A stretch of DNA of 64,000 nucleotides from a virus. Lineage: Duplodnaviria > Heunggongvirae > Uroviricota > Caudoviricetes. The notes beneath the pieces are model-generated. The model searched no databases and had not been told where the DNA came from. It worked only from the letters and a program-made list of their open reading frames with translations. The position numbers were made by a program, and so were the translations under genes. This document shows positions 821 through 8,151 of the stretch, one piece after another (the stretch's first letter is position 1; the number at the start of each line of letters is the position of its first letter). The stretch lies in the IMG/VR virus record IMGVR_UViG_2740892441_000001. One strand, given 5' to 3'.

Positions 821-1984
821 TCATTCTTTATCTCCGATTCGATCTTCTGTATCGCGTAAGCAACGCGGCCATTTCAGTCGTGGGTGGCGTAAGCTGCCGT
901 CCGGTGTTTTCTCGTGACAATGAACCTCGACAATACGACCACGGTACTTCTCTTTGTTGTTCCAGATCTCGTCCAGATATTTATGCTTAATGCCGCTCGC
1001 ACGAACAATCACACCGTTTTCAAGGCGAATAACAATTTTTCCAAGCGTGTTGGCAAAACCAGAGTCCGGGTCGCCCGGCTCAAAGTCGATAATTTCACCA
1101 TCTTCTGAATCTTCGTCTTTTAACTTCCACCAGCTGCGGGTACGTTTAAACTCGTAAACAGAGTTCGGATCTTTGCCCATCTCCCCTTCTTCGTTATCGT
1201 CCAGGCGTTTCATGAAGCGTTCGATGAAGTCTTCGTGGCTATGGATGATGTAGAACGGATGCAGGTGAATGTCTTGCGCGTAGTCTTCACTGCGATCGTT
1301 TTTGAACAACGCCACGAGCATAGCCAGGCGCTCTTTCAGCTTCATACCTGTCTTTGCATACTCTTTGGATTTAGCCTGTGCCCGCCATTCCGGTAGGAAG
1401 AAGTCGAAAACATGATAAATAGCGCCAATTGCCTGCACGTTCTTTTTGCGCAATGCAGATACGGACTGGTTAAATGAACCGGCTGTTCCTTCACCATCGA
1501 AGAAGATGTGTTTGTGGCCTGAAAGTTTGCCTAATTCGAGCATGGCTGGCTTTAGGTGATCGAGAGACGTGATTGGATTACCAGTACGAGAAAGGAAGTT
1601 AACCTCTTCCTCGTCAACAATAACCTCGCAAATTACTCGCAAACCATCGAGCTTAAGGCTGCCAATCATCGGCCATTTTGCTTTAGGATTTGGCTTGAAG
1701 GGGTATTTGTCGCCTTTTTCTTTATACGGCGACGCCAGCTGCACCTCAAATTTCGGAATGGGATTTTCAAAAACCTTGTTGCATAGGCTAATCCCAACGC
1801 CCGCTTTCGGGTCTTTTAAGAGGAAACGACGGAACACGTCCTGCCCATCGGCGCACATTGACGCCACGATAGATTCAACAGCAGCTATTGCTGCGTTCCC
1901 CGTTAGCTCGCGAGAGGCCAGCTTATTCAGTATATCAATGGCTTTTTCGTCACTAGGGACGGACTCACTAAGCGGCTCTGCCAC
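821..1984 (-). CDS. ATP-dependent DNA ligase
   Basis: 387-aa ORF with adenylation motif I KLDGLR (KxDG) and motif III FFDGEG. Confidence 0.6.
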   Translation of the reverse strand: MAEPLSESVPSDEKAIDILNKLASRELTGNAAIAAVESIVASMCADGQDVFRRFLLKDPKAGVGISLCNKVFENPIPKFEVQLASPYKEKGDKYPFKPNPKAKWPMIGSLKLDGLRVICEVIVDEEEVNFLSRTGNPITSLDHLKPAMLELGKLSGHKHIFFDGEGTAGSFNQSVSALRKKNVQAIGAIYHVFDFFLPEWRAQAKSKEYAKTGMKLKERLAMLVALFKNDRSEDYAQDIHLHPFYIIHSHEDFIERFMKRLDDNEEGEMGKDPNSVYEFKRTRSWWKLKDEDSEDGEIIDFEPGDPDSGFANTLGKIVIRLENGVIVRASGIKHKYLDEIWNNKEKYRGRIVEVHCHEKTPDGSLRHPRLKWPRCLRDTEDRIGDKE

Positions 1985-2138
1985 TTTGTATTTCTTTACC
2001 CCAAAACGGATGAAAGGTTGAGCATCAATGAAACCATGCTTTGCTCGAAGTCATCCATGTTGGCCAATGCCTCTTTTTTTGCATTGGTTCCCATAGCTTT
2101 CATTTCGTCCAGCTTATGCTTAAGTGCGATCAACTTTT

Positions 2139-2621
2139 TCATTGTTGTTTTGCCTCCATATGTTGATCGATTTGCTCATGTGTTTCTTTTGTTGTTTCTT
2201 CAAGCAACGCCGCATACACGTCAGTGATCGCTGTTTGTGATGTGGCGCTCTTCTTAACCATGCTATTAATCGTTACACTGTCACGTTTTCGTTTTATAGT
2301 TCTGGCTTGTTTATTCCGTTCTTCAACCTCCTTAATGAGCGCGGTCATATCTTCGAAATACAGAGATTCTCCTTTACGAATCTCTTCAACCATCATTTTT
2401 AACGCCTTGCATTTGCCTGCTTTGATAGCGGTTGCGCACGACTGGAAAGAAGTTCGAGGAAGACGGTTTTCTTTGAAGGCAAGAATGGTGTGCTGGCAAA
2501 CGGAATAGCTGCAATATGCCGACTCACCGTTTATCTTTACTTCCTCACAACGAAGTGAATAACCGTTATTTCCTGAAATAGAAGGGATTTTTGACAAATC
2601 AGCTTTCACAACTACCGCCAT
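2139..2621 (-). CDS. hypothetical protein, Cys-rich N-terminal half
   Basis: 160-aa ORF, several Cys/His in first 80 residues, basic C-terminus. Confidence 0.35.
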   Translation of the reverse strand: MAVVVKADLSKIPSISGNNGYSLRCEEVKINGESAYCSYSVCQHTILAFKENRLPRTSFQSCATAIKAGKCKALKMMVEEIRKGESLYFEDMTALIKEVEERNKQARTIKRKRDSVTINSMVKKSATSQTAITDVYAALLEETTKETHEQIDQHMEAKQQ

Positions 2622-2677
2622 GAATAATCTTGTACTTACCTATCATTGTTTGCGTAAAAAAACGACGCGCGGAGAGA

Positions 2678-3460
2678 TTACCAACTTCCCCAGCTAATCA
2701 TCTTGCGCTGATTGCTTTCTAAGCGATAGGGGACAAGAAGCTCTGTGACATGATTGGTGGCGTATGATTTAGCCTCTTGCTCTATCATCGGTAATTCGTT
2801 AGCAATCCTGACCATCTTCCCAGCAAATTCCGCCATTACGCCATCACATGCCTTCCCCGCATCAATAACGATATGCACCAGATCCAACTGGCTTTTGCAC
2901 ATGTCGCAAAGAGACGCGTACTCACTCTCTCTGATTACATTTACGGCATCATTAGCCCCTTTATTAAGCAAGACTTCCAACAGGTTTGTCGGGGTAACGA
3001 AATCGGCTTTAAGTGACAATGTTCTCTCACCTTTTATCGACCGTAAGTACTCTTCGTAGTTTTGCTTGTCTTCCAGCAAAACTAAGCTATGCATAGTTAG
3101 AAGTGATTCTTGAATAGCCTCTTCAATAATACTGTCATTTGACGCACAAAAAACGGTATTTGTGTAGATCACTTTGCCATCCATCCATGCCCCAACCTGC
3201 ACTTTAAGACTGATCGGGTTTTCTTTGCTAATAAAAACAACTAATGCAGAACGCCCTGCACAAGAAGGTTCACCCCATACGTGTAACTCAACTTTCAGAT
3301 AAGGTAGCCCTGGTAGCGGGATCTCAACCAAACGAGTGGCGATATGATCCATTGCTGTTTTTACCGCTTTTTCAATGATGTCTAGTCGATTGCTCTCGCT
3401 GATTTCTAAACCAGTTTTATCAATGATGTCGCAGGCTAATTTCTGAATTTCGTCTTTCAT
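2678..3460 (-). CDS. hypothetical protein
   Basis: 260-aa ORF, no recognisable motif. Confidence 0.4.
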   Translation of the reverse strand: MKDEIQKLACDIIDKTGLEISESNRLDIIEKAVKTAMDHIATRLVEIPLPGLPYLKVELHVWGEPSCAGRSALVVFISKENPISLKVQVGAWMDGKVIYTNTVFCASNDSIIEEAIQESLLTMHSLVLLEDKQNYEEYLRSIKGERTLSLKADFVTPTNLLEVLLNKGANDAVNVIRESEYASLCDMCKSQLDLVHIVIDAGKACDGVMAEFAGKMVRIANELPMIEQEAKSYATNHVTELLVPYRLESNQRKMISWGSW

Positions 3461-3522
3461 ACCAACTCCTAGCTAACAGATGAAAGTATTCTTACAGAAA
3501 GATAAGTAATCATCTACTTATT

Positions 3523-6931: not shown

Positions 6932-7029
6932 CTGGTAGGTAGTTACTTACTTATCACAATGAACGGATGATAACGACTGGTGGCAGTTTTTGGAAGTGGA
7001 AACGGAAGGGAGTTGTTCTGGTGGTGTCT

Positions 7030-7100
7030 TTTAAAAGACCTGCTTCCGTATATATATTTAATAAGTTACTTATTATTTATATACAGAAACAGGTTCTGAT
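7030..7100. repeat. second, partly degenerate copy of the palindromic element
   Basis: cctgcttccgtatatatatttaataagttacttattatttatatacagaaacagg. Confidence 0.5.
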
Positions 7101-7123
7101 TGAAGCTGCCAGACCGGAAGTTG

Positions 7124-7483
7124 TCAGCCTTTTTTCATGAGTTCTCGCTTGATTTCATCGGTACGCATCGTAACGTCGGCAGCTGTGATCGCCTCGTTAA
7201 GTTTCACGATGTCCTCGATTTCCTGCGGTGACTTCTCTGCCAGATGGAAAATGGCTGCGCGAATCACGTCAGAACGTGTGAACTTTTCGAAGCGAGGGAT
7301 GAACTTCATCATCTCAAGCAGTTCGAAGTATTCGTCCTCCAGTGACATTGTGCGGCTTTTAATTTTCTCTTTGCCACGAGTCGGGCGTCCCTGTGGTCTG
7401 ACTGGTTGGCGCAAAGGAGTTGTGTTCTTAGCCGGTGCATCAGGCTCTTTGCGCTTTGCTAGGTCACCCATTTTCATGGACAT
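7124..7483 (-). CDS. small partition partner protein (ParG-like, putative ribbon-helix-helix)
   Basis: 119-aa ORF immediately downstream of parA with 1-nt overlap; basic disordered N-terminus then short structured C-terminal domain. Confidence 0.4.
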   Translation of the reverse strand: MSMKMGDLAKRKEPDAPAKNTTPLRQPVRPQGRPTRGKEKIKSRTMSLEDEYFELLEMMKFIPRFEKFTRSDVIRAAIFHLAEKSPQEIEDIVKLNEAITAADVTMRTDEIKRELMKKG

Positions 7484-8151
7484 TATTCTTCTTCCTCCAG
7501 ACTCAACAGATAATCTACAAATTCTTCAAACTCGGCTTCCGCCTTTTTGTCGCGCTCGCTACCGGTCATTTCAAAGATAGAACGGCCAGACTCTTCCGCA
7601 TCATCGTAGACGTTGCGGTTATATAGATTGACAGGCGCAGGCTCGATGCCAAACGTCTCGACAATCTCTTTAGCCGCCAGAATGCGAGATACTTGTGATG
7701 GCAAAGCCGGGCACTGGTTCATGACCGCGCGGACTTTCACTTTGTCGTTCACATTGCGAACATTGTCGATAATAGGATCGATGTCACGCAGAGATTTCAA
7801 ATCACGACGCTTAGGACGCAGCGGGATAATGATAACGTCGGCCATCAGCATCGCTTGTCGCTGAATTTCGGAGTCAAAGCCACCAGCATCTACCACTACA
7901 TACTCAGCTCTACCCTGAAGCGATTTTAGGTGCTTAATGATGTCATCCTGAACGTATGCAAAAGGAATCAGCTCAAGGTCTTCGTTCTGTCGACGGTCTT
8001 CACACCAGCTTGTTGTCGTGCGCTGAATATCTATATCAGTGATATAAACCTTCTTCTTCTTTTTGACTTTCAGGCAAACGGCAATTTGCTGGGCAACGGT
8101 GGATTTGCCAGGCCCGCCCTTTGTGCCGCCAACCACAAAGATCTTGGTCAT
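7483..8151 (-). CDS. parA: ParA/ParF-type partition ATPase
   Basis: 222-aa ORF; deviant Walker A GGTKGGPGKST near N-terminus. Confidence 0.75.
   Translation of the reverse strand: MTKIFVVGGTKGGPGKSTVAQQIAVCLKVKKKKKVYITDIDIQRTTTSWCEDRRQNEDLELIPFAYVQDDIIKHLKSLQGRAEYVVVDAGGFDSEIQRQAMLMADVIIIPLRPKRRDLKSLRDIDPIIDNVRNVNDKVKVRAVMNQCPALPSQVSRILAAKEIVETFGIEPAPVNLYNRNVYDDAEESGRSIFEMTGSERDKKAEAEFEEFVDYLLSLEEEE

What the first reader, a model, noticed from the sequence alone, without database searches (positions are those of the whole stretch)
821..8151. Self-contained replication and maintenance block (ligase, primase, DnaB-like helicase, ParA partition) suggests a plasmid-like lifestyle
An own ligase, primase and replicative helicase together with a ParA partition pair and a toxin-antitoxin module is more typical of phage-plasmids than of integrating lambdoid prophages, and no integrase was recognised in 64 kb.
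Basis: inference. Interest (0 to 1): 0.45.

Follow-up and report, generated by a model that had tools for sequence, protein, structure and literature searches.

The report
Known SSU5-type phage-plasmid maintenance block

Summary
An AtaR/AtaT-type toxin-antitoxin pair lies just outside, at 8501-9269.

The whole 64-kb window is collinear, at 97-98% identity, with circular ~108-kb E. coli plasmids. It also matches Escherichia phage Cyrano (pLF82), an SSU5/pHCM2-group phage-plasmid reported at 5.5 copies per cell and as producing virions. In 5,426 complete E. coli genomes, 494 of 497 matches to the block are on plasmids. The plasmid-lifestyle reading is therefore supported, and the element is already known.

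Three corrections apply:
- **Not self-contained.** In relatives the Rep_3 initiator RepA and dnaE lie outside the window.
- **Replisome genes are probably lytic.** In Cyrano lysogens RepA, the par genes and the toxin-antitoxin pair are expressed, while ligase and primase are at background and helicase at about twice background.
- **A recombinase sits nearby.** Close relatives carry a tyrosine recombinase about 2.5 kb left of the window, probably a dimer resolvase.

Seen in passing:
- A 13-bp palindrome sits downstream of -10-like boxes at many sites, including those before parA and the helicase gene.
- A defence-gene slot lies within the par operon.
- Homopolymer indels, probably sequencing errors, break the ligase, antitoxin, portal, tape-measure and tail J genes.

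The parts
821..1984 (-). ATP-dependent DNA ligase, catalytic part (387-aa ORF, KLDG adenylation motif)
   Evidence: Pfam DNA_ligase_A_M 49.6 bits. PHROG 114 E 3e-112. Relatives annotate a 1323-nt ligase.
1985..2142 (-). N-terminal stub of the ligase gene. The ATG is at 2142. A 1-nt deletion in a C run (gene strand) near 2016 shifts the frame, with a stop after 48 codons.
   Evidence: Alignment with pEA11_2 and Cyrano. Translation. The indel is unique to the window.
2139..2621 (-). 160-aa protein of unknown function (PHROG 5055)
   Evidence: No Pfam, NCBIfam or PADLOC hit.
2678..3460 (-). 260-aa protein of unknown function (PHROG 4248). Its Cyrano orthologue is about 4 times above background in lysogens.
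3461..3522 (.). Short intergenic gap. SSU5 and pJN2-26 carry an extra opposite-strand gene at this position. Some E. coli relatives carry an extra TPR protein somewhere in the block, not placed here.
3523..4788 (-). DnaG-type primase (longest ORF shown). The likely start is the ATG at 4716 or further downstream. It has a zinc motif CPVC...C....H and a TOPRIM EGAFD motif. A 1-nt deletion at 3547 alters the last codons.
   Evidence: PHROG 47 E 1e-63. Pfam DNAG_N and Toprim_2 fall just below cutoff. Sequence. Indel.
4798..6138 (-). DnaB-like replicative helicase (Walker A GFAKSGKST)
   Evidence: Pfam DnaB_C 50.2 bits. PHROG 19 E 3e-88. The PDB match is named 'DnaB-like replicative helicase', E 4e-12.
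6158..6170 (.). 13-bp palindrome AAACAAATTGTTT, 20 nt upstream of the helicase ATG and just downstream of a TAATTA -10-like box. It is a candidate operator.
   Evidence: Conserved in SSU5 and pJN2-26 although the flanks diverge.
6182..6931 (-). 249-aa all-alpha protein of unknown function (PHROG 2500), directly upstream of the helicase gene. It is found in SSU5-like elements across Enterobacterales.
6932..7123 (.). Empty cargo slot containing an AT-rich palindrome (7038-7094). Relatives carry 0.8-3.6 kb of extra genes here.
   Evidence: The cargo proteins match PADLOC PDC-S31 and PD-T4-3.
7124..7483 (-). 119-aa partner of ParA. It has a conserved N-terminal MGDLAKR motif, a basic disordered linker, then SRTMSLEDE plus two helices. 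It is a probable ribbon-helix-helix centromere-binding protein. Its start overlaps the parA stop by 1 nt.
   Evidence: Sub-threshold RHH hits (aCcr1 E 2e-4; RHH_1 E 0.005 and 0.11 in two family members). Only 18 cluster representatives in 1.84 billion proteins.
7483..8151 (-). Type Ib ParA partition ATPase (222 aa, deviant Walker A, no N-terminal DNA-binding domain)
   Evidence: The closest solved structure is TP228 ParF, 4dzz, E 5e-10.
8152..8258 (-). Leader upstream of parA, nearly invariant from -36 to -107 in E. coli, E. albertii, Salmonella SSU5 and Klebsiella pJN2-26. It contains the palindrome AAACAAGTTGTTT (8187-8199). It also contains a possible array of 4-bp boxes with 4-bp AT-rich spacers (8204-8258). 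It is a candidate promoter, operator and centromere.
   Evidence: Alignment. Sequence. Motif searches. The box reading is by eye, compared with parH (PMC3130281).
8501..8740 (+). DUF1778/TacA-AtaR-type antitoxin. The native ATG is at 8471, but an extra A in an A run at about 8481 separates it from this ORF.
   Evidence: Pfam TacA1 E 4.5e-24. Alignment and translations.
8748..9269 (+). GNAT-fold acetyltransferase toxin of the AtaT/KacT type
   Evidence: PDB chains named N-acetyltransferase or acetyltransferase, E about 1e-79. KacT 5zgn E 1e-74. Pfam GNAT.

Best explanation
The window is an internal 64-kb piece of an SSU5/pHCM2-group phage-plasmid of the E. coli Cyrano/pLF82 lineage. Region 821-8151 holds two functionally different modules that happen to be adjacent.

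**Module 1, plasmid-state maintenance (7124-8258).** One operon encodes a ParF-like type Ib ParA and a 119-aa, probably ribbon-helix-helix, DNA-binding partner. The partner would bind the conserved leader upstream of parA and stimulate ParA through its flexible N-terminal tail. This would position plasmid copies before cell division. The divergent AtaR/AtaT-type toxin-antitoxin pair (8501-9269) adds post-segregational killing.

**Module 2, phage replisome genes (821-6931).** These are a 249-aa unknown protein, the DnaB-like helicase, the primase, two unknown proteins and the ligase. They are largely silent in the lysogen and most likely act in lytic DNA replication. They would work with genes encoded elsewhere on the element: dnaE, a gp32-like SSB, UvsX/Y/W-like proteins and nrdAB.

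Plasmid-state replication most likely starts from the Rep_3 iteron-type initiator RepA, encoded outside the window, and uses the host replisome. The tyrosine recombinase just left of the window in relatives most likely resolves plasmid multimers rather than integrating the element.

**Shown:** gene identities, near-identity and collinearity with known phage-plasmids, plasmid location in relatives, and lysogen expression in Cyrano. **Inferred:** the assignment of modules to life-cycle phases, the DNA targets of the 119-aa protein, and the recombinase role.
For: **Identity and synteny.**
- The block is 97.6% identical to Cyrano and 81% to SSU5.
- 331 plasmid records cover at least 80% of the block.
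- The window maps collinearly to 23060-88118 of the circular plasmid pAVS0223-B.
- The gene order ligase, primase, helicase, 119-aa gene, parA is conserved in SSU5 and Klebsiella pJN2-26.

**Extrachromosomal state.**
- 494 of 497 places in complete E. coli genomes are on plasmids, and 190 records hold at least 80% of the block.
- Cyrano has 5.5 copies per cell, and virion production is reported (PMC9928086).
- SSU5_pHCM2 is a recognised phage-plasmid group (PMC7969092).

**Functional split, from the Cyrano lysogen read counts (background median 9.8).**
- Expressed: antitoxin 592, toxin 344, RepA 133, repressor 96, 119-aa protein 89, ParA 50, recombinase 50.
- Near background: helicase 21, primase 10.6, dnaE 10.1, 249-aa protein 6.2, ligase 5.9.

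**Other points.**
- RepA of the relative is a Rep_3 WH1/WH2 protein, and the recombinase is of the Phage_integrase family.
- ParA is ParF-like.
- The partner protein has a disordered N-terminus and a helical C-terminal part.
- The parA leader is nearly invariant across genera.
Against: - The physical state of this particular copy cannot be seen from a 64-kb window.
- RepA, dnaE, the recombinase and the repressor are inferred from relatives, not observed here.
- The expression data come from one relative (Cyrano) in LB overnight culture, and no induction data were available. 'Lytic replisome' therefore rests on silence in lysogeny plus analogy.
- The helicase is about twice background and the 260-aa protein about four times background in the lysogen, so some plasmid-state role is not excluded.
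- The RHH assignment of the 119-aa protein rests on sub-threshold hits and a low-confidence model (pLDDT 63). Neither sequence nor fold searches of the PDB found a match.
- No clear iterated centromere repeat was found by the repeat finder.
Confidence: 0.85

Rival explanations
1. The ligase-primase-helicase block is itself the plasmid-state replicon. The element would replicate as a plasmid with its own replisome, as the first reader's title ('self-contained') implies.
For: The genes are conserved next to the partition operon in SSU5, Klebsiella and E. coli elements. The helicase is about twice background in Cyrano lysogens. Its promoter carries the same palindrome as the parA promoter.
Against: No initiator or origin-like iterons were found in the block. 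Relatives carry a separate Rep_3 RepA that is 13 times above background in lysogens. Primase, ligase and dnaE are at background. Y. pestis pMT1 is a stable plasmid that has RepA but no annotated ligase, primase, helicase or small ParA.
Confidence: 0.08
2. This copy is a decaying, plasmid-only remnant of a phage-plasmid. Real frameshifts would have inactivated the ligase, portal, tape-measure and tail J genes, so it can no longer make virions.
For: Window-unique 1-nt indels interrupt the ligase (2016), tail J (18253), tape measure (26017) and portal (33637) relative to pAVS0223-B and Cyrano. For the tape measure and portal the same holds relative to pMT1. Defective relatives such as pMT1 exist.
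Against: All these lesions are 1-nt changes in short homopolymer runs, with no IS insertion found in the genes examined. One of them (extra A at about 8481) cuts the antitoxin off from its start codon beside an intact toxin, which should be harmful. That pattern fits sequencing error better than decay.
Confidence: 0.25
3. The element is an integrated prophage, or alternates between integrated and plasmid states, using the tyrosine recombinase expected just left of the window.
For: Relatives encode a Phage_integrase-family protein next to the repressor gene, about 2.5 kb beyond the window's left end. Three of 497 E. coli matches lie on chromosomes. A preprint mentions a chromosomally integrated plasmid with SSU5-like repB/parA in S. 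Agona.
Against: More than 99% of matches are on plasmid records, and those listed are about 95-140 kb or larger. The recombinase is expressed constitutively in the plasmid-state lysogen at the ParA level, as expected for a dimer resolvase. The window shows no chromosomal flank.
Confidence: 0.04

Closest known systems
Escherichia phage-plasmid Cyrano (pLF82, OV696614) and E. coli plasmids such as pAVS0223-B; SSU5_pHCM2 group of the SSU5 supergroup
   Same: They share 97-98% nucleotide identity and full collinearity over the window. The same ligase, primase, helicase, 249-aa, 119-aa, ParA and AtaRT-type genes occur in the same order.
   Different: The window lacks cargo in the slot after the 119-aa gene. 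Cyrano has a DUF2971/PDC-S31 gene there and pAVS0223-B a GIY-YIG/PD-T4-3 gene. The window has a different tail-fibre region (about 10.8-16.6 kb) and carries several homopolymer indels.
Salmonella phage SSU5 (NC_018843)
   Same: The block order is the same at about 81% identity. The parA leader is nearly invariant and the palindrome upstream of the helicase is conserved.
   Different: SSU5 has extra genes in both slots. In place of the AtaRT-type module it has two unrelated genes between parA and the lysis genes.
TP228 ParF-ParG-parH (type Ib partition)
   Same: Both have a small Walker-type ParA without a DNA-binding domain. ParF is the best solved match, E 5e-10. In both, a small downstream partner has a flexible N-terminal tail and a probable RHH domain. 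In both, the control region lies upstream of the operon, and here it may hold 4-bp boxes with 4-bp AT-rich spacers.
   Different: The partner shows no detectable sequence similarity to ParG. It is longer (119 against 76 aa; the ParG length is from my own knowledge) and has two extra C-terminal helices. At most about 6 boxes are visible against 20 in TP228, and their sequence differs. Binding is untested.
Phage-plasmid P1 (RepA/oriR for plasmid replication, separate lytic functions, ParAB, Phd/Doc, Cre/lox, dispersed C1 operators)
   Same: The logic is the same: an iteron-type initiator for the plasmid state, separate phage replication genes, a partition operon, an addiction module, a tyrosine recombinase, and possibly a repressor with many operators scattered over the genome (own knowledge of P1).
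   Different: The genes are unrelated. P1 has a type Ia ParA with a large ParB, and P1 has no ligase, primase or DnaE of its own. The operator analogy is inferred only.

Membership tests
SSU5/pHCM2-group phage-plasmid | Sequence identity and synteny with group members | tested here: met
   97.6% to Cyrano and 81% to SSU5 over the block. The 64-kb window is collinear with pAVS0223-B.
SSU5/pHCM2-group phage-plasmid | Phage structural, packaging and lysis genes on the same molecule as the partition genes | tested here: met
   Terminase, portal, capsid, tail and lysis genes at about 9.7-36.7 kb of the window.
SSU5/pHCM2-group phage-plasmid | Plasmid replication initiator (RepA, IncFIB(pHCM2)-type) | not testable with these tools
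   It lies outside the window. It is present as a Rep_3 protein in the collinear relatives pAVS0223-B and Cyrano.
SSU5/pHCM2-group phage-plasmid | Extrachromosomal maintenance of this copy | not testable with these tools
   No assembly or read data are available. In relatives, 494 of 497 matches are on plasmids and Cyrano has 5.5 copies per cell.
Type Ib ParA (ParF-like) | Deviant Walker A (KGGxxGKS/T), about 200-220 aa, no N-terminal DNA-binding domain | tested here: met
   GGTKGGPGKST at residues 8-18 of 222 aa. The best solved match is ParF. NCBIfam ParA_partition gives 114 bits, below its equivalog cutoff of 180.
ParG-like RHH centromere-binding protein | Ribbon-helix-helix DNA-binding fold | tested here: inconclusive
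   Only sub-threshold hits: aCcr1 E 2e-4 and RHH_1 E 0.005 and 0.11 in two relatives. The monomer model has pLDDT 63 with helices at the expected places. No PDB sequence or fold match. No RHH hit in a Pfam scan of the family alignment.
ParG-like RHH centromere-binding protein | Flexible N-terminal tail with a conserved basic motif; gene directly downstream of parA | tested here: met
   Residues 1-25 have pLDDT below 50. MGDLAKR is invariant across the family. The start codon overlaps the parA stop.
ParG-like RHH centromere-binding protein | Array of short repeated boxes upstream of the operon that the protein binds | tested here: inconclusive
   The leader is nearly invariant. A 4+4-bp box pattern can be read at 8204-8258. 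The repeat finder shows no clear array, and binding cannot be tested.
AtaT/KacT-type GNAT toxin with DUF1778 antitoxin | GNAT toxin closely similar to solved family members, preceded by a TacA/DUF1778 antitoxin | tested here: met
   PDB matches E about 1e-79, with KacT at 1e-74, over the full length. TacA1 E 4.5e-24. In this sequence the antitoxin ORF is cut from its ATG by a 1-nt insertion.
DnaB-family replicative helicase | DnaB C-terminal RecA-like ATPase domain with Walker A/B | tested here: met
   DnaB_C 50.2 bits against a cutoff of 27. NCBIfam DnaB models are all far below their cutoffs, so it is a distant phage-type member.
DnaG-type primase | Zinc-binding motif, primase catalytic core and TOPRIM | tested here: inconclusive
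   Pfam DNAG_N scores 25.5 against 26 and Toprim_2 scores 21 against 22.1, both just below cutoff. PHROG 47 'DNA primase' gives E 1e-63. The CxxC...C....H and EGxxD motifs are visible in the sequence.
ATP-dependent DNA ligase | Adenylation domain with KxDG, in an intact reading frame | tested here: inconclusive
   The domain and motif are present. The frame is broken by a 1-nt homopolymer deletion that is probably a sequencing error.

The most novel reading that the evidence does not exclude
SSU5-type phage-plasmids may run a dispersed operator network in the style of P1. One regulator, most likely the HTH repressor encoded next to the recombinase, would bind the 13-bp palindrome AAACAA-N-TTGTTT. 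That palindrome sits just downstream of the -10 box of about 15-18 promoters, including those of the helicase, parA, packaging, nrdB and many small early genes. The same regulator would thereby tie the partition operon and the phage replisome to the lysis-lysogeny switch. No paper in the held library describes such an operator for SSU5. In addition, the par operon may serve as a constitutively expressed landing pad for anti-phage defence genes.
Probability: 0.45. Interest if true: 0.35.

Novelty: already known. Interest (0 to 1): 0.15.

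Why it matters
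For the scan, this finding can be closed. The window belongs to a common and well-catalogued phage-plasmid family, present in about 5% of complete E. coli genomes. These elements are known carriers of resistance genes (for example dfrA51 and CTX-M-15 in relatives).

The useful residue is practical:
- An 'integrase next door' does not refute a plasmid lifestyle in this family.
- The true plasmid-state signature is RepA plus the small ParA pair plus the toxin-antitoxin module, not the phage replisome genes.
- The sequence appears to contain homopolymer indel errors, which will create false pseudogenes in any annotation of it.

The dispersed palindrome and the defence-gene slot in the par operon are modest, testable leads on how these elements are regulated and how they acquire cargo.

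Tried and rejected
- **Iterated centromere repeats.** I searched around parA and downstream of the 119-aa gene. No convincing repeat family turned up, only an AT-rich palindrome in the cargo slot and small palindromes upstream of parA.
- **Fold of the 119-aa protein.** The AlphaFold2 model was low-confidence. Foldseek against the PDB gave nothing. Profile searches of PDB sequences and Pfam gave nothing above noise. A profile search of 1.84 billion representatives found only 18 relatives.
- **Whether the ligase frameshift allele occurs elsewhere.** An exact 37-mer carrying the deletion was absent from genome contigs. That collection holds one genome per species, so the result says little.
- **The 119-aa protein as binder of the dispersed palindrome.** This is disfavoured. 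pMT1 lacks the small ParA pair but keeps six palindrome sites, including two before the terminase genes.
- **The 'RelE/ParE toxin' label on the Cyrano orthologue.** No toxin-family hit was found in Pfam, NCBIfam or PADLOC.
- **The ParB_N x2 plus ABC-ATPase cluster (37.2-40.1 kb) as the plasmid partition system.** This is disfavoured. The cluster abuts the packaging genes and is at background in Cyrano lysogens.
- **One paper did not apply.** A 2026 preprint on RepA copy-number mutants concerns a different phage-plasmid family, p-p47.

Full report
**Observation**

Region 821-8151 carries eight minus-strand genes. Family searches confirm four of them.

- **Ligase (821-1984).** It is an ATP-dependent DNA ligase: Pfam DNA_ligase_A_M at 49.6 bits and PHROG 114 at E 3e-112.
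- **Primase (3523-4788, longest ORF).** It is of the DnaG type. PHROG 47 gives E 1e-63, and the Pfam DNAG_N and Toprim_2 hits fall just under their cutoffs.
- **Helicase (4798-6138).** It is DnaB-like: DnaB_C at 50.2 bits and PHROG 19 at E 3e-88.
- **ParA (7483-8151).** It is a 222-aa protein with the deviant Walker A GGTKGGPGKST. Its closest solved relative is ParF of plasmid TP228, so it is a type Ib ParA.

A TacA/DUF1778 antitoxin is at 8501-8740 and a GNAT toxin at 8748-9269. The toxin matches solved family members, including KacT, at E 1e-74 to 1e-79.

Four genes in the block have no assigned function: 2139-2621, 2678-3460, 6182-6931 and 7124-7483.

**What the element is**

- The block is 97.6% identical to Escherichia phage Cyrano and to 'phage CMS-2020a' records, and 81% identical to Salmonella phage SSU5.
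- 331 plasmid records cover at least 80% of it. Of all 779 matching records, 735 are typed non-mobilizable, and the E. coli records listed are about 110 kb.
- The whole window aligns collinearly, at 94-98% identity, with positions 23060-88118 of the circular 108,564-bp plasmid pAVS0223-B.

The 64 kb therefore lie entirely inside an SSU5-like phage-plasmid. They span ligase, helicase, ParA, the toxin-antitoxin pair, the lysis genes, tail, head, terminase and accessory genes.

The order ligase, two unknowns, primase, helicase, 249-aa gene, 119-aa gene, parA is kept in SSU5 and in Klebsiella pJN2-26.

The SSU5_pHCM2 group is a recognised phage-plasmid group (PMC7969092). Cyrano is plasmid pLF82 of E. 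coli LF82. It was measured at 5.5 copies per cell, and the authors report virion production (PMC9928086).

**Test of the lifestyle claim**

A search of 5,426 complete E. coli genomes with 2139-8151 found the block in 267 genomes. Of 497 places, 494 are on plasmid records and 3 on chromosomes. 190 records hold at least 80% of it, and those listed are about 95-128 kb.

No integrase-family domain was found in the window ORFs scanned. None is annotated in the collinear part of pAVS0223-B.

The close relatives examined do carry a Phage_integrase-family gene, beside an HTH repressor gene. In pAVS0223-B it lies about 2.5 kb beyond the window's left end.

In Cyrano lysogens that recombinase is expressed at the same level as ParA. 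This fits a multimer-resolution role like that of Cre in P1. That role is an inference.

**How the block most likely works**

The published Cyrano lysogen transcriptome has a background median of 9.8 normalised reads. It splits the region into two groups.

| Gene | Reads in lysogen |
|---|---|
| Antitoxin | 592 |
| Toxin | 344 |
| RepA | 133 |
| Repressor | 96 |
| 119-aa protein | 89 |
| Slot cargo gene | 55 |
| ParA | 50 |
| Helicase | 21 |
| Primase | 10.6 |
| dnaE | 10.1 |
| 249-aa protein | 6.2 |
| Ligase | 5.9 |

RepA of the relative is a Rep_3 (WH1/WH2) iteron-type initiator. It lies outside the window, as does dnaE.

The best reading is as follows. Plasmid-state replication uses RepA and the host replisome. 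The par operon and the toxin-antitoxin pair stabilise the plasmid. The ligase, primase and helicase genes belong to a phage replisome used in lytic growth, together with dnaE, a gp32-like SSB, UvsX/Y/W-like proteins and nrdAB annotated elsewhere in Cyrano.

The block is therefore not self-contained, and the replisome genes are not what marks the plasmid lifestyle. Y. pestis pMT1 supports this. It is a stable relative that keeps RepA but has no annotated ligase, primase, helicase or small ParA.

**The partition pair**

The 119-aa gene starts on the last base of the parA stop codon. Its family is confined to SSU5-like elements. It has 25 close homologues and only 18 cluster representatives among 1.84 billion proteins.

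The alignment shows four features:
- an invariant N-terminal MGDLAKR motif;
- a variable linker;
- a basic stretch;
- SRTMS(L/I)EDE followed by conserved helices.

The AlphaFold2 monomer model is disordered to about residue 46 and then has four helices, at pLDDT 63.

Support for a ribbon-helix-helix fold is only sub-threshold. The hits are aCcr1 at E 2e-4 and RHH_1 at E 0.005 and 0.11 in two relatives. PDB sequence and fold searches found nothing.

I therefore call it a probable ParG-like centromere-binding protein, not a proven one. The 'RelE/ParE toxin' label on its Cyrano orthologue has no support.

The roughly 70 nt furthest upstream in the parA leader (8187-8258) are nearly invariant in five elements whose coding regions differ by up to 20%. 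They can be read as 4-bp boxes separated by 4-bp AT-rich spacers (8204-8258). That is the architecture described for the TP228 OF operator and parH centromere (PMC3130281). This reading is by eye and untested.

**Other proteins in the block**

**Things seen in passing**

*1. A dispersed 13-bp palindrome, AAACAA-N-TTGTTT.*
- It occurs 27 times in the window, counting both strands and allowing up to 2 mismatches. The expected number is 3.4 ± 2.0.
- In Cyrano there are 18 sites with at most 1 mismatch, against 0.6 expected. Fifteen are intergenic, against 0.2 expected.
- The intergenic sites lie 18-80 nt upstream of a co-oriented start codon. Most lie about 12 nt downstream of a -10-like box.
- Sites precede parA (8187-8199), the helicase gene (6158-6170) and the small terminase gene (two sites), as well as nrdB and many small genes.
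- The parA and helicase sites are conserved in SSU5 and pJN2-26 although their flanks diverge.
- The genes downstream are at background in the lysogen, with a median of 7.45. Of the 18 genes at least 5 times above background, only parA carries a site.
- This looks like an operator for a lysogeny repressor. pMT1 lacks the small ParA pair but keeps six sites, which argues against the 119-aa protein as the binder.
- No paper in the held library describes an SSU5 operator.

*2. A defence-gene slot.* The gap between the 119-aa gene and the 249-aa gene (6932-7123) is empty here. In relatives it holds genes matching the PADLOC defence candidates PDC-S31 (DUF2971, Cyrano) and PD-T4-3 (GIY-YIG, pAVS0223-B).

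*3. Window-unique 1-nt homopolymer indels.* They interrupt the ligase (2016), the primase 3' end (3547), the antitoxin (8481), tail J (18253), the tape measure (26017) and the portal (33637). A frameshifted antitoxin beside an intact toxin should be harmful, so these are most likely sequencing errors rather than decay.

**Verdict**

The phage-plasmid interpretation is supported, with corrections. The element is already known.

Noticed in passing
window 6158-6170, 8187-8199, 36783-36795, 36808-36820, 46669, 47154, 48832, 49316, 50511, 52124, 52175, 56111 (also weaker sites at 4743, 41770, 47929, 59885, 60294): A dispersed 13-bp palindrome, AAACAA-N-TTGTTT, is strongly over-represented. The window has 27 strand matches against 3.4 expected. 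Cyrano has 18 sites against 0.6 expected, 15 of them intergenic. The intergenic sites lie upstream of co-oriented genes that are silent in Cyrano lysogens, and most sit just downstream of a -10-like box. The motif is conserved in SSU5, pJN2-26 and pMT1. It is a likely repressor operator network, and no paper in the held library describes one.
   Followed up: partly
window 2016, 3547, 8481, 18253, 26017, 33637 (also 9299, 21726, 50271): Single-base indels in short homopolymer runs are unique to the window relative to pAVS0223-B and Cyrano (and pMT1 for two of them). They break the ligase, primase 3' end, antitoxin, tail J, tape-measure and portal reading frames. The broken antitoxin beside an intact toxin suggests sequencing errors rather than real pseudogenes.
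   Followed up: partly
window 6932-7123 (and 3461-3522): These are variable cargo slots inside the conserved block, both empty here. In relatives the first slot holds genes matching the PADLOC defence candidates PDC-S31 (DUF2971) and PD-T4-3 (GIY-YIG), or a P-loop NTPase. In Cyrano the slot gene is co-expressed with the par operon. In SSU5 and pJN2-26 the second slot holds an extra opposite-strand gene. Some E. coli relatives also carry a TPR protein in the block, whose position I did not map.
   Followed up: partly
window 52272-54434 (-) and 54463-55563 (+): A divergent metG (methionyl-tRNA synthetase) and apbC pair is carried on the phage-plasmid. Every complete E. coli genome matches this part of the window, mostly at 90-95% identity. 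This suggests capture of a host chromosomal segment. The pair is shared by the listed relatives.
   Followed up: no
window 43243-43806 (+): A 187-aa protein matches Pfam 'Repressor of phase-1 flagellin' (FljA-like) over its full length, E 1e-83. The phage-plasmid might therefore affect host flagellin expression.
   Followed up: no
window 37215-40112 (-): Two ParB_N-domain proteins, an ABC-type ATPase and a 296-aa protein lie directly upstream of the terminase genes. Their Cyrano orthologues are at background in lysogens. This is probably a packaging or lytic function, not the plasmid partition system.
   Followed up: partly
window 55601-55990 (-): A 129-aa protein consists of an S24 (LexA/UmuD-like) peptidase domain only, with no DNA-binding domain detected. 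Its Cyrano orthologue is 15 times above background in lysogens. A palindrome site lies about 120 nt upstream (56111-56123).
   Followed up: no
[not shown]
   Followed up: yes
window 10804-16589, 42012-43007, 56034-60266: These segments do not align, or align only at about 76%, with pAVS0223-B. They hold a tail-fibre/host-range module (Peptidase_S74 chaperone, Laminin_G_3 and tail-tip domains), small plus-strand genes, and an Ead/Ea22/DUF551-type accessory region.
   Followed up: partly
window 1-820 and beyond the left edge: No tRNA gene is found in the 64 kb. Relatives carry three or four tRNA genes about 0.8-1.5 kb beyond the window's left end, followed by the recombinase and repressor pair.
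   Followed up: partly
window 47929, 52175, 56111, 60294: A second, longer repeat class shares about 24 nt (TTTTCWCAAATMAGAWAAGGCAGA) immediately 5' of the palindrome on the plus strand. At two of the four sites (56111, 60294) it is followed by a GC-rich hairpin. It may mark module boundaries or terminators.
   Followed up: no
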